From Pecten maximus (taxonomy: Eukaryota): a stretch of 64,000 nucleotides of DNA. Position 1 is the first letter of the stretch. Each line of letters opens with the position of its first letter. The notes under the pieces are model-generated. The model was not told where the DNA came from, did not search any database, and saw only the letters and a list, made by a program, of their open reading frames with translations. The stretch covers positions 16,864,001 through 16,928,000 of the forward strand of contig NC_047025.1 of assembly GCF_902652985.1 (NCBI RefSeq), written 5' to 3'. A program made the translations under genes and the position numbers. This document shows positions 6,356 through 64,000 of the stretch, piece by piece.

Positions 6356-9300
6356 TCAGAAGACACGGAGCATTACATACTCCTTTAAGATGGGAGGTAG
6401 AGGTAGACGTGTGATGGAACCACTTATACTACGTCCTAAACAAAGCTCCTTCAGATGTTTTCGTAATTTGAAACGGCACAACGCCTTCAAGTCTGGAACA
6501 CCCTTAGGGACCTGTGGTCTGAGGTCAATGATATCTTGCCAGAGAACTTTTAAATCTGACCTTCTAACGTCTCTGGATGACAAGGGGAGACAATCATACA
6601 ACAATGTTAACAGTAAGTCGTTGTCTCGACTGTTAAGCAACCGACACCACAATTCCTTATTTTCAGAATGAGGCTGTTCAGTAATGCATCCATGTTGTAC
6701 CAGAACTTGACATATATTGAAGTAATGCTGCTCTGCTGCAAGCTCCAGAGGATCCTGGAAAGTTACTTTACATAGAAGGTTTCCTGTAGAGTATAAAAAC
6801 TTGACATGCCTAGCATTCATGAAAGCACCATGCTTTAGGAGGAATTCAACAAGCTGTACATTTCCATGTATAATGGCCATGTGTAAAACAGTTTCACCTG
6901 ACCGACTGGCTGCATTAATGTCACTTCCAAAGTTAATCAACTGCTGATGAATTTCTATTTTGTTTGTAAAAAATCCAGGAGTTGTACGTTCTTTCACCTC
7001 AAGAGCACTGGGATCAGCTCCCCACTTCAGCAGAATCTGTAACAAAACAAGTAACTTGTATACCTGTTAAATATATTACCAATGTTCCAGGTCATACTCT
7101 CATGGTCTGCTTCTCTCAGCATTAGATCTACTCTTTAATTAATAGGACATTAAATTACTCTGACTGTTGATAATTTTACATAAGGAATTAGTTTGATACA
7201 CTGATTATAATTTACTCTGACTGTTGATCATTTTATATTAGGAATTAGTATGATACACTGATTATGCATTATGTTCATATCACTGACATTAACTGAAGGT
7301 CAAAGGATCTTTAATTTTTTTTTTTTTTTGGCATTAAAACCAGTTTGAATCTCAATACCAATACTGCACATTTTACATGATTATGCCCAGAGTTGTGTAT
7401 TAAAGTAGGTATTAAGATAAGATTCACATCTTGTTGTGATTATATTCATAAACAGTAAACATGGTATACCAGCTGGGAGACAGTTCGCAAACAAGACAAA
7501 GGGCCATTAACTGGCTCACCTGTTTCCCCAATTGGGCCCCTCCATCGAAAACTATCCAGTGGTATACGACAACTCCAAATACCGTATGGAGAATCACAGA
7601 AATATTTCAGACAAAATTTAACATTTTAAAATTAATAGGTACCTTTACAATTTCCAAGTTTTCTTTAGAACAGGCATCATGTAAAAGAGAGTATCCAGAC
7701 TCTGGGATGAAACTGTTGATGTCACACCCAGACTCAAGAAGGAAAGTCACCATAGCAACGTAGTTATTGGAGACAGCATAACTAATGGCCGACTTCCTGT
7801 TGGTCAAAAGGAACATAAAAAATACAGTTAAGATGTTTGCGCAAAGATTTTTTTTTAAGTTTATGTACATCAAAATGTCACATTGTTAACAAAACTTTTA
7901 TCAACACTCCTACAAACAGAACAGAGATTTGTATCGTGGTCATCTGTTGACATTTAATTATTATATTCTTAACAGCCCATGAACACAGAAAATGCATTTA
8001 GGGCCAATTATTAGTAAATGAAAATGTTGTAAAAGACGAATATCAACACATTCTGACATACCCTATCTTAAACAAGCATACTGATATAAAAAATATCAAC
8101 ACATTCTGACATACCCTTATATGCTTATATATCTTAAACAAGCATACCGGGTATTGTTGTTGCAATACATGTCCCTACTGGCCTCCACTGAAAATAGTAA
8201 GTGAACTTGACCTTGACCCAAAATCACTAAAACTCTATTTGTCAGAGATATTATGGTTCTTTATCATTGTATGAAATTTGATGTATATCAGGGCATTTTT
8301 TGTGGCCGATTTGGGGCCGAATTTCGGCCCCATTCCCCACGGCAAAATTGGATATTTTTCCCAATCCGACAAGTTAAAATTCCCAATCGAATGATCTATA
8401 AAAAAATTATGTCTTTAAAAATCCAGATGGTGCCGTCCCGTCTTCGTTTTATTGGTTATTCTGGCCTGAGAAAGGGAGATAATGCTCTAGAGTCTAAATA
8501 AGCCTAGCATAGATCAATATTTGTGTCTACTAGCTTGTTATTTTTACCATTATGTCCATTTTTCCCAATTTACCTGTTGCCGGGCATTTTTTCCAAATCC
8601 CAAAGCCATAGGCCTCATTCCCAAAGTAGTGAAAAAAAGCCCTGTATATGTACATGTATATCACAGAAACTGACACCAATCTTATACTTACCCATAATCA
8701 TCGACTCGATCTTTTTGGCAGTTATGACTTAGAAGGAGCTTAACAATGTCGACAGAGTTTTGAATGACAGCCTGACTGATTGGAGACAGCCTCAGATAAA
8801 ATGGAGGAATTTTGGCTTGTTGGTCGACATCAGAACCATTGTTGATTAGCAGTTTGCAGATGTCAAGATTTTTCTGTAATATAAAAAATAACTGATAATG
8901 TTGTACCAAAGTAAGCTAGCTAGTTTAAGGGCTTGAGAATTTTGGCTAAGGGAAAATTAATGTTGCTTATAAAAACATGTACAAAGTATTTGAAATATTT
9001 TGAACTTTGTGAAATCAATCTGAAAAATCATGAGGTAAATATAATCAAGTTTTCAAAATCCACCAAAATCATGTTTTATATCGAAAATATAACATGGAAC
9101 CAAATCTCTTCAGTTTGTGTCATACACCTGCTTTGTTGAGCCAACAAGACAAAACAAATAACTGAAGGTGCATGTATGCCATGGCCATTCTATCTTATAT
9201 GGGTATTGAGAAGAAGATTTTTGAAATTTCAGTCAATTTGACCCTTTTTAGCCCCACCCATCAGCCCCTGGGGTTCAGTCAGGGCCAACATGTGCATACC

Positions 9301-12300
9301 ATCAAACTGTTATCCCATGCTGATAATGTTAACCAGGTTAGAATGAGTTCCAATACAAATCCAACAAATAATAGTCAAAAATGTGATTTCCCTATATAAA
9401 TTATAGTAAAGTTTACCCCCTCCCCAGGAGCAAACGTGAGACCCCAGGGTCATGAAATTCACAATTTTGGTAAAGCATCATAAGACCCTTCCATCTATGA
9501 AGAATGTTTGATTCCACCATATCTGAGAGTAGAAAAGAAGATTTTTGAAGTTTTAGTCAATTTGACCCTTTTTGGCCCCACCCCTCAGGCCCCTGGGGGG
9601 TGGGGACCATATAATTCACAAGTTTGGTTGACCTTCAGCCATAGAAGCTTTCTGCTAAATTTCATTGAATTTGGCTAAGCGGTTTTGGAGAAAAGGTCGA
9701 AAAGGTAAATTGTTTACGGACGGACGACGGACGACGACGGACAAAAGGCGTTTAGAATAGCTCACTTGAGACTTCGTCTCAGAGTCAGGTGACCTAAAAA
9801 TATTGTCACAATAATGTCGCGCATACAGTATATATCTAATTGACTGTTGTGAAGATGTGATCAGTATATAGTTCAGCAATGAGAATGCATTAGTCATGCA
9901 TAACAGCATGAAACCTGACGTCATAACGCTGGAGTGATAAAGCCAATCTGATACACAAAAGTTGAACCAAAGGATGTGCAGTACTAACAGTAAATAAAAG
10001 CTCTAAATTTCCCAATTATACATCAGACCTCTCATAATGCTATATAATACATAATCCTCTATAACTATTAAGCGATATGTATAGTCAAAGCACAGACAGT
10101 AGATGTGATATCATACATTCCATCTCATCTCTTAGACAAAGAGATAATCACATATATGATAATATATACTCGTATCAAACATGGATGTGGCACAGTGGTG
10201 TATATACTGTCACTGTATAAGCTGTAGGTATTTCTTGCCAGGCGGTTAGGTGCTGTAGATCTCAAGTTGAGGCCCGGTCAGGGTGCTTCATCAATTGTGT
10301 AACTATGTTATATATCTCATTGTTAACACAATGCATCATACATGTATGAACTCATTCTTATTGTGTTGTTGATCCAAAATTTAAAGATTTCAGTTTCCTG
10401 TCAAAATTGCACTGTTTTGAATATGCTAATAATATATATAATAAGTTATATATAGAGGTTACACAACGAGTGGTTGTTGGATATGGAATTTATTTCACAC
10501 AAGTAAGTTATCTTTTTTAAGTTACAAACGACACGAGTCGTGTGACCTGTTTCTACCACAATGATATCGGCTTGAATCAAAGGGAAACATAGCCAAGTCG
10601 TATTTCGCATATGCAAATAAGGTGTTCCGGTGATGGCTGGGACTCGGTGATGTGACGTCATATGATTATTGATGACATCAATAACAATTGCAACTCGGGT
10701 CAAAGTTCGAATTCTTGACCAATCAAAAGACCAGAAGGTCATATTCCACAAGTGGAATATAACATACTGTATAGCGGTAAATTTTAGCGGTCATAAAATT
10801 TGGCGATTTGGTCATGAAAACTGAAAGTTAAATTTTGGCGAGTTAAAATTTAGCGATTTCCCTTAACTCTAGGGTTTTAATTTGACGTTGAGCATATATA
10901 TTACCTACTGATATATAGAGATAGAATCTAATTATGTTATGTCCATACATTCAATTCATGTTGATTAAGTGTGTTGTGTATTATCGATCCTCTGTCTCGA
11001 AACCGGAAACTATTACCAAAAAATTTCAGACGAAAACATACATGAGTATGTGTACAAGCAACAGACAAAGAGAATTTAATCAACCGTAAGATATTGCCAT
11101 GGTCATCTATTGTATGATGTGTATATGTATACAGGTAAGTTAAACAATGAGACTACAGGTAAAGTGTTAACATCAGTTCATTGAATGGTATGGGTAGATG
11201 GCTTTGTTTTCACAAAAAATAATTATGATGCGATATATGTCATACTTGTATTGCTATACATATATCGTGAGTAGTTGTTCAGTAACTATTCGTATTACAT
11301 GTACCTATCGGCATTTTGGCTGACAATTGCCAGGCAACAACCAACGTTACGCACAAGTCGTTGCTCTCTTGAGTTATCAAAGGTAAATGGCGGTCGGAAA
11401 GGAAACTATTTGGGAAATTGAAATTTTCGCGTCTTTTTATTTGGCGGTGTTAAAATTTGACGGGTTAAATTTTGGCGATCTTTATACGGACCCGCCAAAT
11501 TGCCAAATTAAAGCCCCGCTAAAATTTCCCGCTATACGGTATGTATATCCAACAGTTGGCACATTTATACAATGGCTTGAGAGTGGAATAACACTGCGTA
11601 TTGTGGTAGAAATGTATATAGACCACCTATGTCTGAGTGATAGGTGAATATTCCTCGTGGACATGTAATTAGAGTCTGTAGTTTCCTGTAACACTACTAT
11701 CCCCATCCTTGATACATATGTAGCCCCTGGTGATAACAAATGAAACAACACCAAGCTTTCTTCAGATTGATTGACTCTTAATTTACAATAAGACCTACAA
11801 CACATAAAACATAAAAAATAGTGCATTGACTGGAACATACAGTGTATTTACACGACAATGTCTGTACATTAATGTGTACTGTCCAATGGCATAACGATGA
11901 ATGAACTGGGAGTGGAGGACGAGAATGATCTGTGCAAGGAATAGGATGTCTGTTGACACTGGATCGCATGGAATCAAACCTCTCACATGCAATGACACTT
12001 TTAACACAAGTCCTTGCACGCATGTTACACACATGTGGTTTACACAAATGTGTACCAAGTGCCCAAGGGCTACATACTCCCTCTCCCTGATGAAATGACT
12101 CCTGTCATTACATAAACACCTGCTTAACGCATATTACATTGGTAACAGGTAAAAAGTTAATCGCACTAGTTTGGATAATCCATACCAACTCCAACTATCG
12201 ATCAAAGCAGAGATATCGATGAAAATGGAATTCAAAATTCCACTTTATGTCACCTGCACAGAAAGTTGAGTGACAGTCACAAGAGTTATCACAAGAAAAC

Positions 12301-15232
12301 TAATTTTCTATTTTTAGTAACATTGACCCTGACATTTGACCTTTGGATCTGAAAAGTATTCTTAAACAAGCACTTGTTGTAAGGAAGATCTGCATTAAGT
12401 TTGAGTTTGATCAGCCCAAGGGAACTTGAGTTATTGCACAGAAACAAATTTTCTATTTTCTGAACCTTGTTGAATCTCCCCACTCAGGTGATCAAGGTAG
12501 GGGGCTCAGAATGGCTTTGATTAGAGTCTATTGTCAAATTTTCTTGGTTCGTCTTGTCCCTAGTGAAATGTCTTAGGTGATTTAGGGGAAGCAACTCAGT
12601 CTCCGTGTCTGAGTGTGACGAGACGTTAGGTCAGGGCTAACTACCTGCTTGGTTGACCTGAGCTTTTGAACAGGCACCTTAAGGGGAACTTCAAATGGAA
12701 TGGAGTTAAAAGGGAGTACCATGTTATGGTACAAGGTACGACTCTTACCTCCTGAACCTTCATGTGACACCTCATACATAGAATTATCACTGTTGGGGAT
12801 ATTAATCACCAGACAGGGTTCCTGTTTCCACTCATCAGCTAGCTTGTTCTTTCCCTCCAAACAGGTACCTTTCTGATAAGGACCTGGTCTCAAACTTAGA
12901 ATCTCGAACCTTCAAGTCATACTATACTGTGTTCTGTTGAGCATTCCTGTTAGCCTCATTCTGAGCAGCTTTATAAGCTATATCCATCCTATTACAGAGT
13001 TTTCCAACATAGGAGCTCGGATTAACTGCACCCTGCTGACCAGTGTCAGTTCCTTACTAAGAGCCTATCAATAATCTGGGGTGCCCACCGATAACCTTGG
13101 GTGCCACCGAAACAAAAGAAAGTGTCTGTGTGAAGAATACATCATGGAATCCTTTTGGGTTGCATTGTAGGCCTCCAATCCTTTTTCTGGGAATCCTGGG
13201 TAGCAAGCATACCTAGGAGTACGTGTTTTATTGAACCTCTCCACTGAACCATTTCTCATTCGACATTGGATGGTACATTGTATCAGAGACATATATAGAG
13301 AGATAAGTAACATCGCTATTTTCCCGTACAAGTGGTAGCTCCCTTTATTTGTGACCACTCAAGCATATCCCTTATCGAGAGCGTCTTGTTCCCTATCAAA
13401 CACACGCGAGCACAGGTAAATTGGGCTTTGCGCATGTGTGTATCGATGTACTGGAACTTATTCGACATGTTCTGGTTAATCCGCCATTACGTCAGACCAA
13501 AACATCGTCAATTTTAAATACACACAAAAAGCACATCGTTTTATTTAGGCCACTACAAAAGTTACTTCATTATCCAAAAACTATCATAATTATGGGATAT
13601 AGTCTTACTGATCATGCACACTGTTGTCATTAATCCATATTTTCGAAAATCCATTGGGTCCTATTAGACGTCTTCCTAGTTTTGTAATTAAGCCGCCATT
13701 ACATCAGACCAAAACATCGTCAATTTTAAACACACACAAAAAGCACATCGATTTATTTAGGCCACTACAAAAGTTGCTACATTATCCAAAAACTATCATA
13801 CTTATGGGATATGGTCTTGTTTATCATGCACATTGTTGTCATTTATCCGTAGGGACTTTTCGAAAATTGGAGATTCACGCCGATCTTCCCTGTGGTGTGC
13901 TTGACTTTCATACTCAAAATACAAACACTTTGACAGCAAATTGTGATATATTTCATATTGATAACACTTCTGCACTTTGATATTAATAAAATTAAAGCAC
14001 ATCATTGGATCTTGGTGATGATTTCAAATAGAAATTATCGATAATTATGTGTCTGGTTTTCAAGTTTTCTCCAATATGGCGTCAGGAGAAGACTGAACAG
14101 AGTGACCGCAAAGGATTGTGGGAAGGTCAGGGGCCACCACGTAGACATAAGGGCAAATAGAGAGTAGCCAATCTCTCTCTATATGTCTCTGATTGTATGG
14201 AGTTTTTCTAGTTTAACTCCAGCAACTTTGCACAGCTGTTTGATAATCTTGCTTTCAAAGTTACAGCCCTGATCATTATGGAGCATTTCTGGGAAACTAT
14301 AGTACATAGTATACATATATTGGCTTTCTGGTTTTTACAGTGTTTCAGAGACGACTTAACAGGAATGTTATAGCTGCTATAATTCAGGATTCTTATTTTC
14401 TAGTCATTTATATGTGTTGAAGTTCTATGTAACCATACATGGATTACATGCAGTTCACTGCCATATTTCACTACCATATTTCACTCTTACCATATTTCCC
14501 TGCCATAATTCACTGCCATATTTCACTCTGCCATATTTCACTGCCATATTTCAATCATTTTAGAGATTTTATGTATGGCAAGCTCAAGTGTTTCCCTTTC
14601 TCTTTTTTGACAAATGACACTTTGGTAGAAGTTGAGTAATAAATCAACTTTTTCCTTTGTTAGAACTGGCCTTTCAACCTTATTGTGATTAAAGTTTGTT
14701 TTGTTTTAATCAGTAATTTCCTGTTTCAGTGTGGATTTACAGTCTAGCATAATTTCCAATCAATTAAATATAATTAAATGATTTATTGTTTTATTAGCCA
14801 GAGCCCAGATTGTAGTTAACTTAAGTGAGGACTCTCTCCTCTTTTCAAGAGAGTTCTCAATTACAAGAATAAGACATGATCACCAAGAACTACCTTTTTA
14901 GTAAACACCCACTCTGTCTATCATCTGATTACGTGTGTACTAATAATAGTTTACACATCCACGAACATACAAACCTTGATAACAGCCGAGCACAAAGCTG
15001 TTTCATGCTTATCGTTTGCTCCATTGACAACACTTTGTATATCTGCCTTATTTTGTTTTATGACACCCAGATAGTTCCGCACTCGCTCTAGCTCGTCAGA
15101 TTTAACAGCCTCAATTAAAGAAATAACATCTTTGTCAACGTTGACAACATTGTCCGATCGACACGAAAAGTCAATCACAGGATACAGTTTCGGTCGAATT
15201 TCACAGTCAACAACTTTGTAGAGAAGTGGCAT
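6356..15232 (-). CDS. Ankyrin repeat and SOCS box-containing (ASB-like) protein, 4 coding exons, about 424 aa
   Basis: Exons (minus strand): 15232-14975, 8873-8692, 7796-7643, 7036-6356. All introns are GT-AG and phases are consistent. The spliced product has ankyrin repeats (HETALCSAVIK|KNLDICKLLINNGSDVD; GYSLLHDACSKENLEIVK|ILLKWGAD; GETVLHMAIIHGNVQLVEFLLKHGA) and a C-terminal SOCS box (VPDLKALCRFKLRKHL...ITRLPLPPILKEYV*). Confidence 0.9.
8289..8644. mobile_element. hAT-like MITE with 5-bp TSD
   Basis: Termini CAGGGCATTTTTT / AAAAAAAGCCCTG, flanked by TATAT on both sides, with subterminal TTCCC repeats. Confidence 0.7.
9143..9799 (+). mobile_element. Helentron-associated / pearl-like element
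   Basis: Diverged internal repeats (GAAGAAGATTTTTGAA...TTTGACCCTTTTT), a GGACGAC microsatellite, and a 3' end TAGCTCACTTGAGACTTCGTCTCA...GGTGACCTAAAAA with a hairpin. Confidence 0.7.
10767..11539. mobile_element. MITE with TA TSD (Tc1/mariner-pogo type)
   Basis: TIRs CTGTATAGCGGTAAATTTTAGCGG / CCGCTAAAATTTCCCGCTATACGG, TA flanks, and subterminal AAATTTTGGCG repeats. Confidence 0.82.
12560..14340 (-). pseudogene. Degenerate gypsy integrase relic in ASB intron 1, interrupted by a DNA transposon at 13284-14191
   Basis: Minus-strand fragments FPEMLHNDQGCNFESKIIKQLCKVAG (about 14200-14300), NGSVERFN, AYNAT..., and GKNKLADEWKQEP...RTLYHNMVLP, with frameshifts. Confidence 0.8.
13284..14191. mobile_element. 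Non-autonomous DNA transposon with 7-bp TSD (P-superfamily-like)
   Basis: TIRs CAGAGACATATATAGAGAGAT / ATCTCTCTCTATATGTCTCTG. Perfect TSD ATTGTAT at 13277-13283 and 14192-14198. It has an internal direct duplication of about 150 bp (13480-13635 vs 13693-13850) and splits an integrase relic. Confidence 0.8.
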
Positions 15233-15642
15233 CTTAAGCCCAGGACTAATGTACACTTTTATGTAGGAAAGATTTGCTGATAACTAACAAAAGACCATTG
15301 TCTTCTCTGTTTCATCATCCGAACTCTCATTCAAAATGAAAGTAGAAAAGTCATCTTAGGGAGCATAACGTTTGTAATGTGTGCATTGTCCCTGTTATGG
15401 ATGAAATATAGTATAAAAGTATATTGTTAAAATACTAGATTTTTTAGGAAATAGTTTTAACTGTGAAATATGAAGAAACATTTCTGAACTTTACTAATCA
15501 AATTTTCAAATCAACTAAAATCAAATTCTCCCCATTCCAAGATGGCCGCGCCCTGATGAAACACGTTGGGCGTCACATGAAAACATTTTTTAAGCAGTTG
15601 TTGAGGTCATACAGAGCTGATTTCCCGTGTAATAATAGAAAC
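15233..15642. promoter_or_regulatory. Putative bidirectional promoter/5'UTR region shared by the ASB-like gene and PRMT7
   Basis: The divergent ATGs are only about 320-410 bp apart. A YY1-like CAAGATGGCCGC motif lies at about 15538-15549. Confidence 0.6.
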
Positions 15643-18600: not shown

Positions 18601-21600
18601 GGAGGTTTGGTTTATATTATACTAAATATAAATAAACAATATGTTGTCAAAATTCCATAGAACAAGCTGTGTTTACATCAAAATATCCTGGAACATTTAC
18701 ATAATATAATGTAAGTTTCTATTTCCCAGCAACAAATATTCTTCAGCTTGTAATTGTATCATATTCTGTATCCATTTTAAACATAACAAAAACTTTCTCC
18801 TGTTCTTGTTTTCAGGTCAGCATATGCTGATATGCTACATGACACTGAAAGGGTATGTCCACAAAACAAATATCAATCTGAGTATACAGCTCTGTATTTT
18901 CATGGTTGAAAAAAAATCAAGTTTTGTTATCATCCTGAAGTATATAATTTTCCATTGTTTGTATGCAGAATGCTGCTTTCTGATTGGTTTAGAGTTTTTT
19001 TTCATTCCTCTATGAAAAAAAAATCCGAAAATGGCGTGAAAAATGTGACGTCACAATATGGCCATTGACATTGCGTATTGATTTGTGAAAAAATATCCCT
19101 TATAAGATCAGTTAAATTGTACATAAAATATTTTTTGATTTTGAAAATCAATTTCAAATATTTATCATAAGCGTTAATGTCAATTATTTCTTAGTTTCAT
19201 AGGAGTATGAAAAAAAAAATTGTTTGCAAACTTTTGTAAGAATTCACTACACGGATTCATACAGTTTGCAAACAATTTTTTTTTCATACCGCAATGAAAC
19301 TTGACATCAGTGCTTAAATATAGATATGTTATTTCTACTGTAAGATAAGTTCAAAGCTACATTAAGTACCTTTAGTTAAACAACACAGATATGTAAGAGA
19401 AGTCTTATGAATCTATAAAAAACTAAAATTTTGTACTCTGATGCTACACAAATATTGAAGCTGACTTTAGTTTGGTCAATTTTTCAGAATCAGAAGTATT
19501 ACTCTGCCTTGCGTCAGGCAGTTGGGATTCTCCGTGAACGTGGAGAGAGGATTCATGTCCTTGATATTGGCACAGGAACAGGACTTTTGTCCATGATGGC
19601 CGCCACCCTAGGAGCTGACCAGGTGACTGCATGTGAGGTGAGTAATGAGTCAGTGGGGCCAGAACTGAACTAAGGACAGACTGGAATAAGACTTTGGTTG
19701 AAAATGTCTTCTTATATATAGCTATAAACATTTTTTTACTTTACATCAATTGGGAGAAAAGTTGTATCATCTTATATTAATTACTCTTGTTGGCCTGGAT
19801 GGAAGCATGCGAGGGGTCTTACTACGGCAGGAAACAGGAGTACACAGAGTAAACCAATGTGATTAGACAATTGGTCTCATACCTTTTCATATCTGATCAG
19901 GGAATCAAACCCTGGTTGTCTAGGTGGAAGGCAAGTGTAATACCAACTAAGCTACTTGATCAAAAATATCAAGTAATAGTAAGATTGTGTATCTGCTAAA
20001 TGCACATTCCTTAAATCCTTGTCTTTCAAAAGATGGTACATTCAATTGGTTCACTCCATCCAATTTAAATAGAAAGATTGAGCCTTCCATAAAATAAATA
20101 AGGAGATCCTTAGATAAGTCTCAAATGTTAGCTTTCTTTCAGTTTTTGCTTTTATACAATTTTAAAAACTGATTACCTTTGAAATAAAAGGAAAATGTTG
20201 ATTAAAATGAAGATTTTCCTACTAATAAGTTTTAGATCACATTTCACTTCTAAAAAATATAATATGGTTTTGTTCAACAGGCTTTCTCTCCTATGGCAGA
20301 GTGTGCCAAGAAGGGGATCCTACAAAATGGTTTTGCTGACAAAATAAAGTTGATACCAAAACGTTCTACAGAAATCTTGGTGGGGAAAGGTCAGTAGTTC
20401 TTGATCATATTTGGCTAATGGCTTACTGGAATAAAGTTCTAGGAAAAAAATAAAGGATACTAAATCCGGTCTGCATATAGAGGATTATTAAGAATCAAAA
20501 TTAAACATTCAAATATCCAAACTAAGAAGTGCTGTTAAGCCATCAGTATTAAATCATATGGAAAATGATTTTACAATGTGCTTGTATTATAATGTTATGT
20601 TAACATTACAATAAATTAATTTTACAATTTGTTAACAGATGGAGATATGGAATCACGCGCAAATATCTTGATCACAGAGGTGTTTGATACAGAACTGATT
20701 GGAGAAGGGGGTATTGGAACATTTACACATGCTCACAAAGAACTTTTACAGGTAATACCAGAAATATGTTTGTCAAAGTATCTTCAACAGGTGATACTGA
20801 CCGGGATAGATATATGGGGAGATAACTCCTACAGGTGATACTGATCATGATAGATATGTGGGGAGATAACTCCTACAGGTGATACTGACCGTGATAGATA
20901 TGTGGGGAGATAACTCATACAGGTGATACTGGCCGGGATAGATATGTGGGGAGATAACTCATACAGGTGATACTGACCGTGATAGATATGTGGGGAGATA
21001 ACTCCTACAGGTGATACTGACCGTGATAGATATATGCGGAGATAACTCATACAGGTGATACTGACCGGGATAGATATATGGGGAGATAACTCCTACAGGT
21101 GATACTGATCAGGATAGATATGTGGGGAGATAACTCATACAGGTGATAATGACTGAGATAGATATGTGGGAAGAAGGTACAGACTTAAGGTATTGCTGTT
21201 TTTTACTTAGTACTCAAGACCTTACAATCAACCAGGGGCTGTTGTATAGTAGGGACTGTTATAGTCTATTTATGATAATACATCCAGAGATTGATAAGCT
21301 GTGGTTGGTTGGGTGGCAGAGTTACACACTAGCCTTTAGGTGGCCTGTATGGCTCAATCTCCCATTTAGACATAAAAAGGTAGAGTGGTCACTTGCCAGA
21401 CAGTGTGGGCTTTCTCCAGGTTCTCTGGTTTCCTCCTTAAAACAGACCCCTGGCATGCTTCCATCCCAGACAACAAGACTGATGGATACAACTTGATATA
21501 ATTGTCACTTGTTTCACGATAACAGTGCTCCAGATCACTTTAACTCAAAAATTCCAGACACGGAAATGAATTGCTCCACGCTTTTGCCGTTGTTGAATGA

Positions 21601-27600: not shown

Positions 27601-30600
27601 TTCTGTCAAGCTTTACTCTTAACCTCAAAAATGTTTACCTACAATTTGTCAAGAAAGCAGGGGATATAAATTCCACAAATTTGCTTGTTACAGGTTAACC
27701 CATTATGGTGGGAGAGTCATACATTCATATCCTGTGTTTTTATTAGGTCACCTGAGATGAAGTCTCAAGTGACCTTTCCTAATTGCCTTTTGTCATCCAT
27801 TCGTAAATAATTTCATATTGACTTCTTTTCAATATCCAAGACGCCTAGAGACCTGATATTGGTCCTATAACATGCTGGGGCAATGGGCTATCAAGATTGT
27901 TCAAATTAATGACCTTGACCTTCATTCAAGGTCACAGGGGTCAAATGTGCTAAAACTTTAAAATGACTTCTTCTTATTAGAAGCCTTCATTTACAGCCCC
28001 CAGGCTCAAATGTGCTAAACTCTTTTAAATGTCTTCTGGATAACGACACACTTCGAAACCTGATATTTGGCTTGTAACATGCTGGGGTGAGCACATTGAC
28101 CTCAAGGTCACAGGAATCTAATCTACCAAAATGTATCAAAATTCATTGGCCTTTTGTTACAATTGAAACTTGTGGTGGGAGAGTCACACTTTCAGATTCT
28201 ATGTTATTACTACAGGTTGACCTTGTGGTGGGAGAGTCACACTTTCAGATTCTATGTTATTACTACAGGTTGACCTTGTGGTGGGAGAGTCACACTTTCA
28301 GATTCTGTGTTATTACTACAGGTTGACCTTGTGTTGGGAGAGTCACACTTTCAGATTCTATGTTATTACTACAGGTTGACCTTGTGGTGGGAGAGTCACA
28401 CTTTCAGATTCTGTGTTATTACTACAGGTTGACCTTGTGGTGGGAGAGTCACACTTTCAGATTCTATGTTATTACTACAGGTTGACCTTGTGGTGGGAGA
28501 GTCATACTTTCAGATTCTATGTTATTACTACAGGTTGACCTTGTGATGGGAGAGTCACACTTTCAGATTCTATGTTATTACTACAGGTTGACCTTGTGGT
28601 GGGCGAGTCACACTTTCAGATTCTATGTTATTACTACAGGTTGACCTTGTGATGGGAGAGTCACACTATCAGATTCTATGTTATTACTACAGGTTGACCT
28701 TGTGATGGGAGAGTCACACTTTCAGATTCTATGTTATTACTACAGGTTGACCTTGTGATGGGAGAGTCACACTTTCAGATTATGTGTTATTACTACAGGT
28801 TGACCTTGTGATGGGAGAGTCACACTTTCAGATTATGTGTTATTACTATAGGTTGACCTTGTGATGGGAGAGTCACACTTTCAGATTATGTGTTATTACT
28901 ACAGGTTGACCTTGTGATGGGAGAGTCACACTTTCAGATTATGTGTTATTACTACAGGTTGACCTTGTGATGGGAGAGTCACACTTTCAGATTATGTGTT
29001 ATTACTACAGGTTGACCTTGTGATGGGAGAGTCACACTTTCAGATTCTGTGTTATTACTACAGGTTGACCTTGTGATGGGAGAGTCACACTTTCAGATTC
29101 TACGTTATTACTACAGGTTGACCTTGTGGTGGGAGAGTCACACTTTCAGATTCTGTGTTATTACTACAGGTTGACCTTGTGGTGGGAGAGTCACACTTTC
29201 AGATTATGTGTTATTACTACAGGTTGACCTTGTGGTGGGAGAGCCATACTTTCAGATTATATGTTATTACTACAGGTTGACCTTGTGGTGGGAGAGCCAC
29301 ACTTTCAGATTATATGTTATTATTACAGGTTGACCTTGTGTTGGGAGAACCATACTTTCAGATTATATGTTATTATTACAGGTTGACCTTGTGTTGGGAG
29401 AGCCATACTTCCAGAGTTCTGTATTACCGTGGCACAACATTTCCCATTGGTACAATATAGATCAGCTATCTAACATTTTGGTGGATGAGGCAAAAATATT
29501 CCCTGCTGCAATGACAATAAAAGCAATGGCCGTGGACTTTACAGACTTGTGGAAGATACGGGCCCCTGTTGGAATGTGTGAAGGATTCAATCTACAAGTA
29601 TTCGATGATTTGATAGAGGTAAGAGTATCTTGTGTTAAAACTATCAAACAAACACACAGATTTTCAGGATAAAGCTTTTATAAGCAATGATTCCAGGAAA
29701 ACACTAGCTAAAATCAGATGGTTGATCTTTCTGAAACTTTTTACATACCACCCACAGGAAAACAGATAAAGATAATCAAGTTCTCTTCAAGTTGGCAAAT
29801 AAATATATTGAAACACACTTTCATCATTAGATTGTTACAAATGTTTTAAAAGGGCAATAAGTTAAGTAATGCTGACGTTTTAATTTGCCAGGTATTGAAA
29901 ATAAATACTACATAGATGTTTGTAATGAGACGATGTGTAGGTGACCTGTTGTTAGGTATTTGTAGAGCTAGCTCTAGAAATCTGACTAAAGATTATATGA
30001 ATTTAATGAAATTTTCTCCTGTTGACAGCGGTCATCCGACATCGCTGATGAGACTGTAGAACCACAGCCCTTATGGGAGTACCCCTTGTACTGCTCGGAG
30101 TGATGTTGTTGATATTTACAACTTCCAGTATACTTCATCTTGGGACGAAACTGCTGTAGCTGTGACAAAAATACTCAATTTACAAAGGTTTGTAAGACAG
30201 AACTCTCAAATTAAGGTACCAAATACAATCAGTGACTTTGGTTAATGCAAGAAGTGAAATTATCTAACCACTATTTGGTTATTTGGTAAATGTGAGAAGT
30301 GAAATTATCTCCCTCATTTGGCTACTTGGTTTATATGAGAAGTGAAAATATCTTCTTTCGTTTGGCTGTTCCGTTAATGAGATTGAAATTATCGCCCTTG
30401 TTGTCTTGTTGGTTAATGTGAGAAGTGAAATTATCTCCCATATGTGACTATTTGGTTAATAGGGAAGTGAAATTATCTCCCTTGTCGACTGGTTGGTAAG
30501 AAATGAAATTATCTCGCTTGTTTGGCTGTTTAGTTAATGTGAGAAGTTAAATTATCTCCCTTGTTAGGCTGTTTAAGGGCGAATTTGTTCTCCTAAAACC

Positions 30601-37166: not shown

Positions 37167-40100
37167 ATGGCAACTGGATTACCAACATTCCCGCAATTTT
37201 CTGTACACGAAAATGCTGTCGACATCAGATGGAAAAAATGGGTGAAGAGGTTGGATAACCTATTGGTTGGTATGAACATCAAAGACAAAGACAGGAAACG
37301 TGCATTGTTCTTACATTTTGCTGGAGATGAAGTCAATGACATTTTCGATACTCTACCCGACACAGGCAACGATTATAAAACTGCTGTTGAAAGATTAACA
37401 GAGTACTTTGCGCCGAAGAAAAACACAGAATTTGAAGTTTCAAATTTCGCCAAACAAGACAAATGTCCAGTGAGAATATTGACAGTTTCCACACCAGACT
37501 GAGACAACTAGGACAAAACTGTGAATTTGTTGATTGTGACAAGGAGATCAAATCACAAATAATTCAGGGATGCAGTTCAACCAGACTTCGGAGAAGAGCG
37601 CTACAGGAGGACATGGATCTTCATAAGTTAATAGCGATGGCCCGAAGTATGGAGATTTCACACCTACAAGCTCAGGAAATTGAAAAAACTGATCGTGCCT
37701 ACCCACAGAGAGAAGACACGAACGCTGTAAAAAGAAAATCAAATGGCGGTTGGAGTAAGCAGAACCGAACACACTCAAACAAGCCATCACAGGTATGTCG
37801 AAACTGTGGAGGAAAGTTTCCTCACGAGAAGCCCTGTCCAGCAAAAGGGAAAGTATGTCACTCTTGTCAAAAGTACAATCATTTCTCGAAAGTATGCAAA
37901 TCGAAAAAACTTGTTAAACAAGTAGAAGACAAATCAAGTCAACCACGCAATGAAAGTTCAACAGACGAGTATCTTTATGGTATACAAACAATCAACCAGG
38001 TTAAATCAAAACAACCTAAAACTGCGGTAACTGTTGATGGATTGACTCTTAATATACTTGTTGACACAGGATCAAGCATCAATGTCATGGAGGAAACAAG
38101 CTACAACAAAATCAGAAATAAGAAAAAGCTACAGAAAGCATCAACAAAACTGTTTGCGTATGGCTCAACAAAACCTCTACCTGTAATTGGAACTTTTGTT
38201 GCAAGCATAGAAAGTAAACAGAGACTTGTCACTGCGCTATTTTATGTAGTAAAGGGATGCAACGGAAACTTACTGAGCTATGAAACGTCAGTAAATCTTC
38301 AACTCATACCCGTTATCTCTGCTGTATCGGAACAGAGAGAAGAGAAGCTATGCGAAAAATACGCATCAATCTTCGAGGGTATCGGGAAATTGGAAAACAC
38401 CCAGGTAGATATACACATTGATGACAATGTTAAACCTGTGGCTCAACCACACAGACGTATTCCTTTTCATGTTAGGAAACATGTAGAAGCTGAGCTAGAC
38501 AGACTTGAAAAATTGGACATCATTGAGAAAGTGACAGGACCAACACCTTGGGTATCCCCGATCGTCGTGGTTCCTAAACCCAGAAGTCCAGGAGAAATTC
38601 GGATATGTGTAGACATGAGACTACCCAATAAGGCTATACAAAGAGAAAGACACACCACACCGACTATCGATGACTTGATAGTAGATTTAAATGGTGCAAA
38701 AATGTTCTCAAAACTAGACCTCAGAGCAGGATATCATCAACTAGAGTTGACAGAAAAGGCCAGAAATATCACAACATTCTCAACACACGTTGGACTTCGA
38801 AGATACAAACGATTGAGTTTTGGTGTATCGTCAGCAGCAGAAATTTTCCAAGATACGTTACGGACATGTCTGGAAGATCTCAAAGGTGTAAGAAATATCA
38901 GCGATGATATCATTGTTTTTGGCAGGACCCAAGAAGAACATCACAGAAATCTCGAAGCAGTATTTCAAAGGTTGAAGGAAAAGAACTTAACACTTAACAA
39001 AAACAAGTGCGAGTTCAACAAGAAAAGGCTAGAATTTTATGGGTACATATTTGGAGCGGAAGGAATATCTGCTGATCCAAAAAAGGTTGAATCAATCAAG
39101 AACGCTGCTACTCCAACAAACATATCAGAGGTACGAAGCTTCCTAGGTATGACAAACTACGTTGGACGATTCATACCCGCCTATTCTACTACAACAGAAC
39201 CGCTAAGGAGATTGACAAAAAGTACAACGCCATGGAAATGGACAGACAGTCAGCAAAAAGCGTTTGAAAAGCTCAAACAAGACCTGACTAGTGACACTGT
39301 GATGTCGTATTTCGACCAGACGAAGCTGACTAATCTTGTAGTGGATGCAAGTCCCGTTGGATTAGGTGCTATCTTATCTCAAGAAGGAAAGATTATCGCA
39401 TACGCAAGCAGAGCTTTGACAGATGTTGAACAGCGATACTCACAGACAGAGAGAGCGGCACTAGCTATTGTGTGGAGTTGTGAACATTTTCATCTGTATC
39501 TCTATGGACATACATTTACACTCATCAGTGACCATAAACCACTAGAGTGCATTTTTAATAATCCAAAATCAAAACCACCAGCAAGGATCGAGAGATGGCG
39601 ATTAAGACTTCAACAATATGATTTCAATGTTTTATACAAACCAGGCAAATCCAATGCAGCCGACTATATGTCAAGACACCCAACAAGTTTACAAAGCGGT
39701 AAACATTCTGAAATAGCGGAAAGCTATATACGCTATATCGCAACAAACGCAGTACCAAAGGCAATGACACTCTACGAAATATGTATGGCTACTAAGCAGG
39801 ACATGGAAATTCAAATGATCATACAATCTGTCAAATCGGGAGTATGGAAAAAACATTACAACAGCAAAACCCTGGAAACATTGTCAAGAGTACGCAGTAA
39901 CCTGACAGTTGTTGCTACAAAGGATGGTGAAGTGTTATTATGTGAAAACAAACTGGTTATTCCAAACACTCTACATCAACGAGCAATAGAACTGGCCCAT
40001 GAAGGACATCAGGGAATTGTGAAAACAAAACAATTACTGCGGGAAAAAGTTTGGTTCCCCGGTATAGACAAAAAAGTTCAAGATATGTGTAAGGGATGTA

Positions 40101-41041
40101 TTCCGTGCCTTGCATCAGTACCTAAGACAACTACTGAACCATTACGGACGACAGAACTTCCAGAAGCTCCGTGGACCAGAGTAAGCATGGATTTTTGTGG
40201 ACCATTCCCGTCAGGAACATACTTAATGGTACTTGTGGATGATTACTCAAGGTATCCAGTGGTTGAGATACTATCAAACGTGTCAGCACGTACTGTCATA
40301 CCAGTACTAGACAAAATCTTTGCAATGTTTGGAATTCCACAAAAGCTCAAAACGGACAATGGACCGCCGTTTAATGGAAACGAATTTCAGAAATTTGCGG
40401 AGGATTTAGGTTTCAAACATCAAAAGGTTACACCATTATGGCCTCAAGCAAATGGAGAAGTAGAGCGCTTCATGAGGACTCTAGGAAAGTCGATTCGCGC
40501 TGCTCACGCTGAAAATCGTGTGTGGAAACAAGAACTATTCCGTTTCTTACGTAATTATCGAGCAACACCTCACACTACAACAGGTGTATCGCCCTCAGAA
40601 TTACTGATTGGACGAAACATTCGCATCAAGATACCGAGCATTGAAGTCAAAACTAGCGATGACTCCATTGTGAGAGAAACTGACAACAAAAGAAAACGAA
40701 AGATGAAGGAGAAATCAGACAGCACAAGGCATGCTACTGAATCAAAGCTAAAAGTAGGTGACACCGTTCTTGTTAAACAGAACAAACATGACAAGCTGAC
40801 AACCCCATTTGATCCAAAACCATACCGGATAAAATCTAAGAAAGGATCCATGGTGACCGCTGAAAGAAACAATCATCAAATTACCAGAAATTCTTCATTT
40901 TTCAAACGAGTTATGACACCACCATCGGAACAATGCCCCGAGGAGGAGGAAGAAAGAAACATGGATGATAAACCAGGCATCAGGAGGTCAGCACGACGAA
41001 AGAAACCACCGAATCTATGGAAAGATTTTGTGTATTCATGA
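37167..41041 (+). CDS. Gag-Pol polyprotein of the LTR element (frameshifted at about 37440)
   Basis: ORFs 37167-37502 and 37463-41041 overlap. Motifs: twin zinc-knuckle region CRNC...CHSCQKYNHFSKVC, protease LVDTGS, RT ISDD and KLDLRAGYHQ, RNase H DASPVG...DHKPL, integrase HEGHQG...CKGC, DFCGP, TDNGPPF, NGEVER. Confidence 0.92.
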
Positions 41042-45961: not shown

Positions 45962-48900
45962 ATGATAAGGTTCCTATTACTGGGGGCTGCTCTACTAGGA
46001 GTAGGGTATGCCCAGAGTCGACAGACTGTCATAGACAACCAGGTCGGGTACAAGCAAGAAAGAGCACCGTAAGTATTATAATTCTATATATAATAATTCA
46101 TAGTAAAGTGTGAATTTCTTGAGGAATAACTGGCTATCTATGGTGGTATTTTTGGACATTTTTGTTTCATGCCAATATGTAAGAAAATCTCAAAATAAAA
46201 TCTATGATATGTTCAAAGTGAATCTTTAAAAGATAGTGGTAACTTCTTCTAACACTCAATATATTGGATGTAGCTCTTTGGATAAGTGATTTATTACCTT
46301 ATCATTGTGAAGTTATATTTATTGCCCCTATATCAAAGTCATGGTAACGGGTAACATCATCTGTTGAGGACATTCTAGTTTCCCTGCAATACTCTGTGTT
46401 CTATATCACTATCTATTTAGTACTAAGTCCATCATGCCTGCTGACAGACAATTAAGTCTGACTACTTCTGTTGCAGATCAGTGAAATGCTATCTAAATTT
46501 TGTTATAATCAAAATGCCTACTTAAAAAGTGAGGCAGAGTTTCTATATGTTAAAATTGGCTACCTAGACTTATTACAGGTCAAATAAGATATTATATGTA
46601 GTTACACTAAAAGTATATCAATGTAATATGTGTATGCTGTAATCTGCTGGATTGTAAATAATTTTGTTAAATTTTCTGTTGTAGGACTTACTTGGTTATT
46701 GCCCCTAAAAGAGTTCGACCTAATCAGGTTGTACAGATTTTTGTGACGATTCTAAAACTGGAATATTCTAGAATAAATGTGCGTGTATCAATCACTCGTA
46801 AAAACGTGGAGTATGCTGGCGCTGCGCTGACGTTCGACCAGATTGGGAGTCGTACCATGCAGCTGCATGTAAGTTATCATTTAAATAAAAATGATTTATG
46901 ACCCTGTGTACACAATTCTTGAAACAATGATGTTTATACCAGTAATAGAATTTTATCATATTCAGTAAGGTTGTACGTGTACATATTACTAAGTGTTCAT
47001 TATTTGACAATTTGTTGAAGATACTTTTATATAAGGTCAATATACAAGGCCAGCATCAGGGACTAACAGATGAAATGAAAATTTCTGTGACATCTGGAAA
47101 TCAGAATGACTGAAAGTTTATAATTTTGACTGTAGATGCCACAGAACTCACAGACTGGAGATTACAAGCTGCGAGTGGAGGGAACAATCGATGGGGGAAG
47201 CAGTGGAAATGTTTTTGAGAATGAAACCTCAATAGAGTTTCACCCCAAACAGGCATCCCTGTTTATACAGCTCAGCAAGCCCATCTTCAGACAGGGCCAG
47301 AAAGGTACTGTATCATGTCTGGGTGGGGGAAATGTCCAACTTAAGATAACATAATTTATCATTGGCCAATTCATTCCTCCCTTTTTCCTGTGATTGATGT
47401 CGATTGGTAAAATCTAGATTTGAAAATATGCTTACACAATCTGTATCAAATTAATGTTAGTGAAACAAAAATATTTGAAACAATATACTGTATATTGTAT
47501 TGTAGTGTGATGGATACACCATATTTTTGACTTAATAAATTGACAGCTAAAATAATATATCAATACTGTATACAATGTATGAATTCTATAAATTGTTGTG
47601 TTTTCTGTAGTTTACTTCCGAGTGGTGCCTATCCTCCCTAACTTGATGCCGAAATATGGAAGTATGACAATATATGTAAATGTGAGTATTGTTTGTTAAG
47701 TAAACTGCTAAGATCGGATTAAAAATCCTAAGGATATCAATAAAGATTGAGAGCTAAATCCTAAGGATATCAATAAAGATTGAGAGCTAGGGTTTTTATA
47801 ACCTGATTTTGGGACAGAAAATTAAGCCCCAATCACAATGCAAAATGATATATCTTTTTGTCTCTTGTTTCCCAGTTTTTTTTATCCAAAATTGAAAATG
47901 TGAAAAAAAAATACGTTAAAATTTTGTATTTTGATAAGCATCAAAAAGAGACTAAATTGTTCTGTTCACTTCGATTAAGTTATGACAAATTTCTGTAATT
48001 TGATAACCAACCTTTTTTTGTGCTATTAAGTGTTGCTAGCTTGTTTAGTTTATAAGGAAATGTTTCCACTTTTTTCTTAAGCCACACTAAATTTTCAGAT
48101 TTCTAGGGCCCTGGCCTCGGCCCCTATCCCTAAAAGGGAAAATCACTGATTGAAATAACACATCCTCACCTAGCTATGTCATGTCACAATGTGAGGATTA
48201 GTCTTTGCTCGTCTAAATATGTCAATCAGGATTAAAATTAAAAAAATAAAAATAAAAAAATCACTCGCATGACACATGAATGCTAAAACTATGCCTTTCA
48301 GATTTTAAAGATATTTTATGTTGAATGTAATTTTTAAGACCTTAATGAAGCCGGATCATTGTTATAAAAGATAAATTTTAATGAGTGAGTGTTCATTATT
48401 TTTTATTTATAGGATCCCACAGGATTCCCTGTGCGTAGATGGCTAGCAGTACAGACCAATGCTGGAGGTCAGTCACTTCTTATGTTGAAATGTTGAAACA
48501 TATGTTGTGAGGAGGTTTTATAACATTCTCTCCTTTCATTATCATTGTTGGTTTTTTTGGGGAGTTTTTTTTTCTTTTTTCTTTTTAGTTTGTTTTTTTC
48601 TGTAACTAGAAAATACTACTATGTTAAACATGTTAAAATATGTGTATATTTAAGATATAAATAATGGTGTTCTATATAAATGTTGAAATTCTGCTTGAAA
48701 TTTTTTTTTTATGAAAGTTGAGTTCAGAACTGGAGGTAAAAATCTAGAATCAAAGAAATTAGCTAGTGTCCTGCATGGGTAAAGTCACACTATCCTCACA
48801 AACATTTTAGATTTAAAAACTTAGCTGAGACTTTCCTATCAATGGTAATTTTTGAAAAAGTTTAAAAGCATGTAAATTCTTTAATATGCAGAACAAACAC

Positions 48901-63724: not shown

Positions 63725-64000
63725 TGATATATTTGTGGATATCTGATGTCTATTACAGCTGACAACCACTGTGAATGTGGAGTATGATATATTTGTGGAT
63801 ATCTGATGTCTATTACAGCTGACCACTGTGAATGTGGAGTATGATATATTTGTGGATATCTGATGTCTATTACAGCTGACAACCACTGTGAATGTGGAGT
63901 ATGATATATTTGTGGATATCTGATGTCTTTTACAGCTGACAACCACTGTGAATGTGGAGTATGATATATTTGTGGATATCTGATGTCTATTACAGCTGAC
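63725..64000 (+). repeat. 60-bp minisatellite apparently built from the next MCR acceptor junction (runs off the window)
   Basis: TCTATTACAG|CTGACAACCACTGTGAATGTGGAGTAT junctions at 63758, 63818, 63875, 63935 and 63995. Confidence 0.88.

What the first reader, a model, noticed from the sequence alone, without database searches (positions are those of the whole stretch)
63725..64000. Second acceptor ladder: the 60-bp repeat predicts the unseen next MCR exon
Seen: each unit has ...TCTATTACAG followed by CTG ACA ACC ACT GTG AAT GTG GAG TAT (LTTTVNVEY) and then an in-frame TGA (GAT ATC TGA). The previous exon ends GTGRALIQ in phase 0. Established: TEP/A2M proteins continue G-x-G-x-A-x-x-Q-x(4)-Y/V-N-V at this position, which LTTTVNVE fits. 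Inference: these are stop-containing decoy copies of the next exon's start, and the real exon is the last copy beyond 64000.
Basis: partly seen in the sequence, partly recalled or inferred. Interest (0 to 1): 0.7.

Follow-up and report, generated by a model that had tools for sequence, protein, structure and literature searches.

The report
Repeated splice acceptor in scallop MCR
The last 33 bases of an intron and the first 27 bases of the next exon of a scallop immune-type gene are repeated 13 times in a row, assembled RNA enters the exon at the last copy, and the array is likely a tolerated example of a repeat type ("mirage") already described in lancelets and humans.

Summary
The 60-bp array runs past the window to position 64503: 13 copies, 97% alike, each made of 33 intron bases and 27 exon bases. 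Copies 1-12 stop in frame after 14-15 codons. Copy 13 opens coding exon 32 (64476-64615) of an intact 35-exon MCR gene, 95% identical to an Argopecten protein. In 3 of 6 runs (3 studies) a single contig runs from exon 31 through copy 13 into the exon. The other 3 runs also hold RNA made of the repeat unit. One of them has an unspliced intron-31 contig (about 8%). These contigs cannot show whether upstream copies are sometimes used. 'Decoy' as a function is unsupported: 2 of 13 arrays in this gene span a splice site, against 2.2 expected by chance, and introns here are 28% tandem repeat. It matches amphioxus 'mirages' (BflGb6) and human CBS 844ins68. Choice of the last copy is likely positional (exon definition; inferred). 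This scan has noted the same thing before, in this genome and in at least eight other windows. New member of a known kind; low interest.

The parts
45962..64000 (+). MCR (macroglobulin complement-related) gene, coding exons 1-31 in the window; the gene continues beyond the window to 68194 in continued numbering (35 coding exons, 1593 aa). Coding exon 32 lies outside the window at L009:1476-1615 (140 bases, LTTTVNVEYAWQIKNTVDSKQF...MVPCV, donor gtactg)
   Evidence: tblastn of P0001; exon model 1518 of 1594 residues identical; Pfam domains of P0001; exon 32 matches once in the genome and contigs continue from it into exon 33 in 4 of 4 runs
63417..63479 (+). Coding exon 31 (LPKVYGQVRVTAKGTGRALIQ), phase-0 donor gtaggt
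   Evidence: joint 62957>63417 in 4 of 4 runs
63480..63724 (+). Unique 5' part of intron 31 (245 bases); the intron is 996 bases, and would be 279 with one repeat copy
   Evidence: covered by one 305-base contig in run X13, depth 11.1
63725..64000 (+). Mirage minisatellite, part inside the window: 60-bp unit (33 intron + 27 exon bases); acceptors of copies 1-5 end at 63758, 63818, 63875, 63935, 63995; each is followed by an in-frame TGA. Copies 6-13 lie beyond the window (L009:1001-1503): copy 12 (AG ends L009:1415) is the weakest acceptor and copy 13 (AG ends L009:1475) is the authentic one

Best explanation
The array is a minisatellite of 13 copies of the intron 31/exon 32 junction of the MCR gene, assembled RNA enters exon 32 at the last copy, and the 12 upstream copies are likely tolerated by-products of tandem-repeat growth and not a control device. 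Shown: the unit, the copy number in this assembly, the in-frame stops, the intact gene, and splicing from exon 31 through copy 13 into exon 32. Inferred origin: a 60-base duplication across the junction (2-base TG overlap at its edges) expanded by slippage or unequal crossing-over. Inferred choice of acceptor: copy 13 is identical in sequence to half of the upstream copies, so position must decide. Most likely the exon-32 donor pairs with the nearest acceptor (140-base exon; 200 to 857 bases for the others), helped in this allele by decay of copy 12. Inferred fate of mistakes: any upstream acceptor or an unspliced intron gives a stop three junctions before the last exon, so such RNA would be degraded by nonsense-mediated decay or stay unspliced.
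For: (1) Anatomy. The unit matches only at this locus (14 of 14 matches on C11:16927725-16928503) and exon 32 has one match in the genome. (2) The gene is intact and 95% identical to P0001. (3) One contig spans exon 31, the shared 33 bases and copy-13-specific exon sequence in X1 (1139 nt), X3 (5213 nt) and X15 (2306 nt): 3 of 6 runs, 3 studies. (4) No enrichment: 2 of 13 arrays in the gene span a junction, 2.16 expected, P(>=2)=0.67; tandem repeats cover 22% of the 113 kb held and 28% of MCR introns. (5) An acceptor matrix from the gene's 33 other acceptors scores copy 13 at 8.3, the same as 8 upstream copies; copy 4 scores 10.2 and copy 12 scores 2.9. Copies 1-11 would give exons of 260-857 bases, and the longest internal exon of the gene is 255. 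(6) The same layout is described for amphioxus BflGb6 and reported not to disturb splicing (PMC3087553); the downstream copy is chosen in CBS 844ins68 (PMC1802585).
Against: (1) Three of 6 runs (X10, X13, X14; 2 studies) hold contigs made of the repeat unit, at depth 50, 199-226 and 124, against 33, 133 and 139 for the exon-31 junction. In X13 the unspliced-intron contig (depth 11.1) times 12 passes explains about 133 of about 212; the rest needs about 19 passes (a longer allele), some upstream-acceptor use, or loose depth figures. (2) These contigs cannot phase the junction, because 33 bases are shared by all paths. (3) In human data competing 3' sites prefer the upstream one overall, and exon definition only reduces this (PMC9225289 section 9), so the positional mechanism is inferred and not a safe rule. 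(4) The chance model is crude and rests on one gene; the matrix rests on 33 sites.
Confidence: 0.85

Rival explanations
1. The array lowers or tunes MCR output. It slows removal of intron 31 or diverts part of the splicing to stop-containing copies, so that copy number acts as a dose dial through retention and nonsense-mediated decay.
For: Repeat-unit contigs in 3 of 6 runs at 0.9-1.6 times the depth of the spliced junction; an exon 31-intron 31-array contig in X13, about 8%. All 13 acceptors are predicted to be largely base-paired (unpaired 0.09-0.28 against a median 0.43 for the gene's 34 acceptors). All 12 upstream copies stop in frame.
Against: Ordinary unspliced RNA multiplied by 12 or more repeat passes gives such depths (implied 7-12%). 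The other 3 runs show one clean spliced contig. The stop comes from the intron sequence that was duplicated, so it needs no selection. The unit folds no better than shuffled units (62 of 200 as stable), and the acceptor is already poorly exposed in a single-copy state (0.21). Such arrays are no more frequent than chance.
Confidence: 0.09
2. Upstream copies are real alternative acceptors that make a shortened, secreted MCR (about 1406 of 1593 residues) without the receptor-binding domain and membrane anchor.
For: Every upstream copy is in frame with exon 31 and ends the protein before the receptor-binding domain and the C-terminal hydrophobic stretch.
Against: The stop lies three junctions before the last exon, the usual trigger of nonsense-mediated decay (established knowledge, not tested here). 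No contig proves the join. All 9 full-length homologues printed continue past VNVE into exon-32-like sequence.
Confidence: 0.03
3. The array is an assembly artefact or private to the sequenced animal.
For: 3 of 6 runs show no repeat-unit contig, which could mean alleles without the array.
Against: Unit-to-unit junction contigs occur in 3 runs of 2 studies, so at least two tandem copies exist in other samples. Copies carry distinct variants. The exact number 13 is not confirmed independently.
Confidence: 0.03

Closest known systems
Amphioxus 'mirage' minisatellites, above all globin BflGb6 (also BflGb9, Adh3, troponin C, PGBD5); PMC3087553 and PMC3902484, passages read
   Same: Head-to-tail copies of the 3' end of an intron plus the 5' part of the next exon; many copies keep AG; regular splicing is reported to be undisturbed. 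Unit length 60 lies within the 10-160 bp reported.
   Different: Bivalve and not cephalochordate; 13 copies against 3-6 in BflGb6; every extra copy here is in frame with a stop. Length polymorphism, reported for mirages, was not measured here.
Human CBS 844ins68; PMC7490669 and PMC1802585, passages read
   Same: [quoted passage not shown]
   Different: Two copies against 13. In CBS, G runs between the sites promote the choice; this unit has no run of three or more G (sequence).
Human F7 intron 7 37-bp VNTR; PMC1557585, abstract read
   Same: A minisatellite spanning an exon-intron boundary, with identical pseudo-sites that are normally silent while the site next to the exon is used.
   Different: A donor array, not an acceptor array. 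The MCR exon-26 donor array in this window (60493-60778) is the closer match.
Molluscan MCR proteins (BgMCR1/2; scallop 'CD109-like'); PMC7016707, passages read
   Same: The host gene has an LDLa domain, a mutated thioester site, and a C-terminal cysteine stretch with a hydrophobic tail.
   Different: Nothing unusual in the protein. Databases name the close relatives 'CD109 antigen-like', a mislabel that this paper discusses for another scallop.

Membership tests
Mirage minisatellite (PMC3087553) | Tandem, minisatellite-like copies of a unit that spans an intron/exon boundary of the host gene | tested here: met
   13 copies of 33 intron + 27 exon bases; copy 13 is the real boundary
Mirage minisatellite (PMC3087553) | Many copies keep the AG/GT splice signal | tested here: met
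   13 of 13 keep AG; 12 of 13 score 7.5-10.2, against a median of 6.7 for the gene's other acceptors
Mirage minisatellite (PMC3087553) | Regular mRNA is still made from the authentic site | tested here: met
   Single contigs exon 31 > copy 13 > exon 32 in 3 of 6 runs; minor use of other copies is not excluded
Mirage minisatellite (PMC3087553) | Length instability between alleles or cells | tested here: inconclusive
   Repeat contigs in 3 of 6 runs; X13 depths imply about 19 passes against 12; no DNA reads of other animals were laid
MCR subfamily of thioester-containing proteins (PMC7016707) | LDLa domain in place of the bait or anaphylatoxin region | tested here: met
   PF00057 at 696-734 of P0001, E 1.1e-4, 22.7 bits, just under the 24.1 cut-off; the matching cysteine-rich exon 17 is at 54878-54994
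MCR subfamily of thioester-containing proteins (PMC7016707) | Canonical CGEQ thioester site mutated | tested here: met
   PYGAGEMN at residue ~1013; no CGEQ in the model
MCR subfamily of thioester-containing proteins (PMC7016707) | C-terminal cysteine stretch and transmembrane helix | tested here: met
   4 cysteines in the last 60 residues; 19-residue hydropathy peak 1.75 near residue 1565 (a simple hydropathy scan, not a dedicated predictor)
MCR subfamily of thioester-containing proteins (PMC7016707) | Falls in the MCR clade in a TEP tree | not tested
   No tree was built
Regulated poison-exon / AS-NMD switch | Measurable, regulated use of the stop-containing site | not testable with these tools
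   Only assembled contigs were offered; a 33-base shared stretch prevents phasing
Regulated poison-exon / AS-NMD switch | Conservation of the element in related species | not testable with these tools
   No other animal genome was searchable (no relatives held)

The most novel reading that the evidence does not exclude
The 12 stop-containing copies, or retention of the array-bearing intron, take a real share (about 10% or more) of MCR transcripts in some animals, so array length acts as a heritable dial on an immune and barrier protein, or yields a secreted MCR without its anchor. The repeat-unit RNA in 3 of 6 runs, above what the one measured unspliced contig explains, leaves this open.
Probability: 0.08. 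Interest if true: 0.5.

Novelty: new member of a known kind. Interest (0 to 1): 0.13.

Why it matters
As it stands it matters little: it is one more mirage, in a genome region that is over one-fifth tandem repeat. Its value is as a natural test case: 13 near-identical acceptors compete and the farthest downstream one is used, against the upstream preference seen for competing human 3' sites (PMC9225289). It also warns annotators, since a gene predictor that takes the first acceptor would call this intact MCR gene truncated. It would matter more if copy number were shown to change MCR output.

Tried and rejected
(1) RNA structure hiding only the upstream copies: rejected. All 13 acceptors are about equally paired and copy 13 is not consistently more open (0.09, 0.13, 0.25 at spans 80, 150, 300). 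A 271-base piece folds with z -1.24, 26 of 200 shuffles as stable. The unit is not more self-complementary than shuffles. (2) Copy 13 as a stronger site: rejected, it equals 8 other copies and copy 4 scores higher. (3) Micro-exons or mini-introns inside the unit: its five GT sites score -1.0 to 1.4 against a median near 8 for real donors, and no joint inside the unit was listed. (4) Enrichment of repeats at splice sites in this gene: not seen. (5) A dispersed element or paralogue as source of the repeat contigs: no match elsewhere (lower-bound searches). (6) Intron-31-specific retention: the unique parts of intron 29 (end), intron 30 and intron 32 (first 165 bases) had no matching cover in the runs laid, apart from a dispersed repeat in intron 30, but missing contig cover is not evidence, so this is not counted. 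The absence of an intron-entry contig in X10 and X14 is likewise uninformative. (7) A private branch point for copy 1: an ACTAAAC upstream of copy 1 is only a resemblance; my YTRAY scan found the same CTGAT at -13 in copies 1, 12 and 13 (the three scanned), and no hit at all in 12 of 34 introns, so it cannot decide. (8) Paper searches without result: minisatellite + intron-exon boundary + splice site + duplicated; VNTR + splice donor + UPF3A. One search (4 of 5 terms) listed 13 papers, none containing 'bivalve'. PMC2630376 passages added only that 844ins68 is a 68-bp duplication. No supplements were read; the BflGb6 alignments are in supplements of PMC3087553 that I did not open.

Full report
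Setting. The window is G000:C11:16864001-16928000 in a 918-Mb animal genome. I fetched 30 kb from position 63001 onwards and 20 kb before the window. Coordinates above 64000 continue the window's numbering. The closest protein is from the scallop Argopecten irradians, so the animal is likely a scallop.

Observation. The array is real and longer than the window shows: 63725-64503, period 60, 13.0 copies, 97% matches. Each unit is 33 bases of intron end plus 27 bases of exon start (LTTTVNVEY). Thirteen acceptor AGs end at 63758, 63818, 63875, 63935, 63995 and then every 60 bases to 64475. Spacings are 60, or 57 for copy 2, so all are in frame. Copies 1-12 read on into the next unit's intron part and stop at TGA after 14-15 codons. 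Copy 13 continues into unique sequence. Seven copies are identical (1, 3, 5, 6, 8, 11, 13); the others differ by one change, a 3-base deletion (copy 2) or three changes (copy 12). The array edges share a 2-base TG.

The gene. An exon at 62222-62470 found 20 relatives among 31 candidates, the best P0001 at 94%. Mapping P0001 gave 35 coding exons from 45962 to 68194 and a 1593-residue open protein, 1518 of 1594 residues identical (UTR exons were not modelled). Exon 31 ends GTGRALIQ in phase 0. Exon 32 (64476-64615) begins at copy 13 and matches P0001 residues 1390-1440 at 88%. The motif search printed 9 of the 20 relatives, and all 9 have Q-LTTTVNVE here; the other 11 did not match my motif and were not examined further. 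The protein has MG2, MG3, A2M_BRD, LDLa, A2M, TED and receptor-binding domains (scanned on P0001), PYGAGEMN in place of the thioester motif, four C-terminal cysteines and a hydrophobic tail. These are the features that PMC7016707 gives for MCR (passages). The unit matches only at this locus and exon 32 matches once in the genome.

RNA. Twenty-four runs were listed, all as assembled contigs, 18 holding the probe. I laid 6 of them (5 studies) on two stretches, each holding one repeat unit and its unique flank. Only X3 is on record as RNA; the others are guessed or unlabelled, but all show spliced joints. The exon-31 end is joined to the unit start in 6 of 6 runs. In X1, X3 and X15 (3 studies) one contig of 1139, 5213 or 2306 bases passes from exon 31 through the unit start into copy-13-specific sequence. 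That shows use of the last acceptor. In X10, X13 and X14 (2 studies) the contigs break at a 33-base stretch shared by all paths (exon 31 and the intron both end TACAG), and there are contigs made of the unit joined to itself, at depth 50, 199-226 and 124, against 33, 133 and 139 for the exon-31 junction. X13 also has a 305-base contig from exon 31 through the unique intron into the array at depth 11.1, about 8% of junction plus intron. Unspliced RNA passes the unit 12 times, so 7-12% unspliced RNA would give these depths. In X13 the measured 11.1 explains only about 63% of the repeat depth; a longer allele (about 19 passes), some use of upstream copies, or loose depth figures could fill the gap. 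The depths are indeed loose: the shared stretch has 63, 270 and 227, less than junction plus repeat. So the productive path is shown, and minor use of upstream copies is neither shown nor excluded.

Why the last copy. A matrix from the gene's other 33 acceptors scores copy 13 at 8.3, like 8 upstream copies; copy 4 scores 10.2, copies 7 and 9 score 7.5, copy 12 scores 2.9. Predicted pairing does not single out copy 13. What remains is position. Copy 13 gives a 140-base exon, copy 12 gives 200 but is the decayed one, and copies 1-11 give 260-857, above the gene's longest internal exon of 255. Pairing across the exon fits this. PMC9225289 (abstract and sections 5 and 9) concludes that exon definition favours the sites closest across the exon, but its 3' data show an overall upstream preference that exon definition only reduces. 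The mechanism is therefore inferred. That the nearest competitor is the weakest copy could be selection or chance; it is one observation in one allele.

Is it more than a by-product. Tandem repeats cover 22% of the 113 kb held and 28% of MCR introns. Of 13 arrays in the gene, 2 span a junction (this one and the exon-26 donor array); a simple placement model expects 2.16, P(>=2)=0.67. The model ignores removal of harmful cases and uses one gene. The stop codon is part of the duplicated intron sequence and needs no selection.

Comparison. [quoted passage not shown] PMC3902484 (passage) adds troponin C and PGBD5. CBS 844ins68 is the two-copy human case with the distal site chosen. F7 intron 7 is the donor version (abstract). 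I found no paper on bivalve mirages, but the library is partial. The scan has recorded donor arrays and junction arrays elsewhere in this genome and eight acceptor arrays in other genomes; these are unchecked notes and not support.

Verdict. Observation confirmed, prediction confirmed, function not shown. It works like, and meets the tested defining features of, a mirage minisatellite. New member of a known kind, interest 0.13.

Noticed in passing
window 28169-29420 (+): The 'first' acceptor ladder: a 53-bp unit with 23 acceptors (AG ends 28215-29381). Only the last opens a long frame, [19 protein letters not shown]..., which matches PRMT7 chain 4c4a_A at E 5e-21; the other 22 stop after 21-43 codons. 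The unit is not a multiple of three. RNA not checked.
   Followed up: partly
window 60493-60778 (+): Donor mirage at MCR exon 26: 85-bp unit, 3.4 copies, with donor-like sites at 60530 (real, by the gene model), 60615 (same score, 9.4) and 60700 (GC, 3.8). RNA not checked.
   Followed up: partly
window 20787-21174 (+): 44-bp array, 8.8 copies, each with ACAG|GTGATA, starting 36 bases after a likely PRMT7 donor (ACAG|gtaata at 20751); resembles a decayed donor array or a chance look-alike.
   Followed up: partly
window 61421-61470 (+): 13-bp repeat (3.8 copies) starting 5 bases after the MCR exon-27 donor, each unit with GGTAAC or AGTAAC.
   Followed up: no
window 50589-51004, 53337-53618, 55723-56660, 59086-59161 and L009:1784-3345 (beyond the window): Five intronic arrays of the MCR gene begin or end 25-40 bases from an exon without touching it, as if bounded by the splice signals.
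   Followed up: no
window 37436-41041 (+): Open frame of 1201 residues with gag-pol-like motifs (zinc knuckle, protease, reverse transcriptase, integrase, read by eye), between PRMT7 and MCR; likely an LTR retrotransposon. Not searched.
   Followed up: no
window 6356-15283 (-): Exon-like frames with ankyrin-type repeats and a C-terminal SOCS-box-like motif (read by eye), likely an ASB-type gene. Not searched.
   Followed up: no
window 63020-63340: A dispersed repeat in MCR intron 30 with over 40 diverged matches (66-85%) across the genome; it draws unrelated RNA contigs.
   Followed up: no
window 63687 and 63692: Two T>A differences between the X13 intron contig and the assembly, probably another allele.
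   Followed up: no
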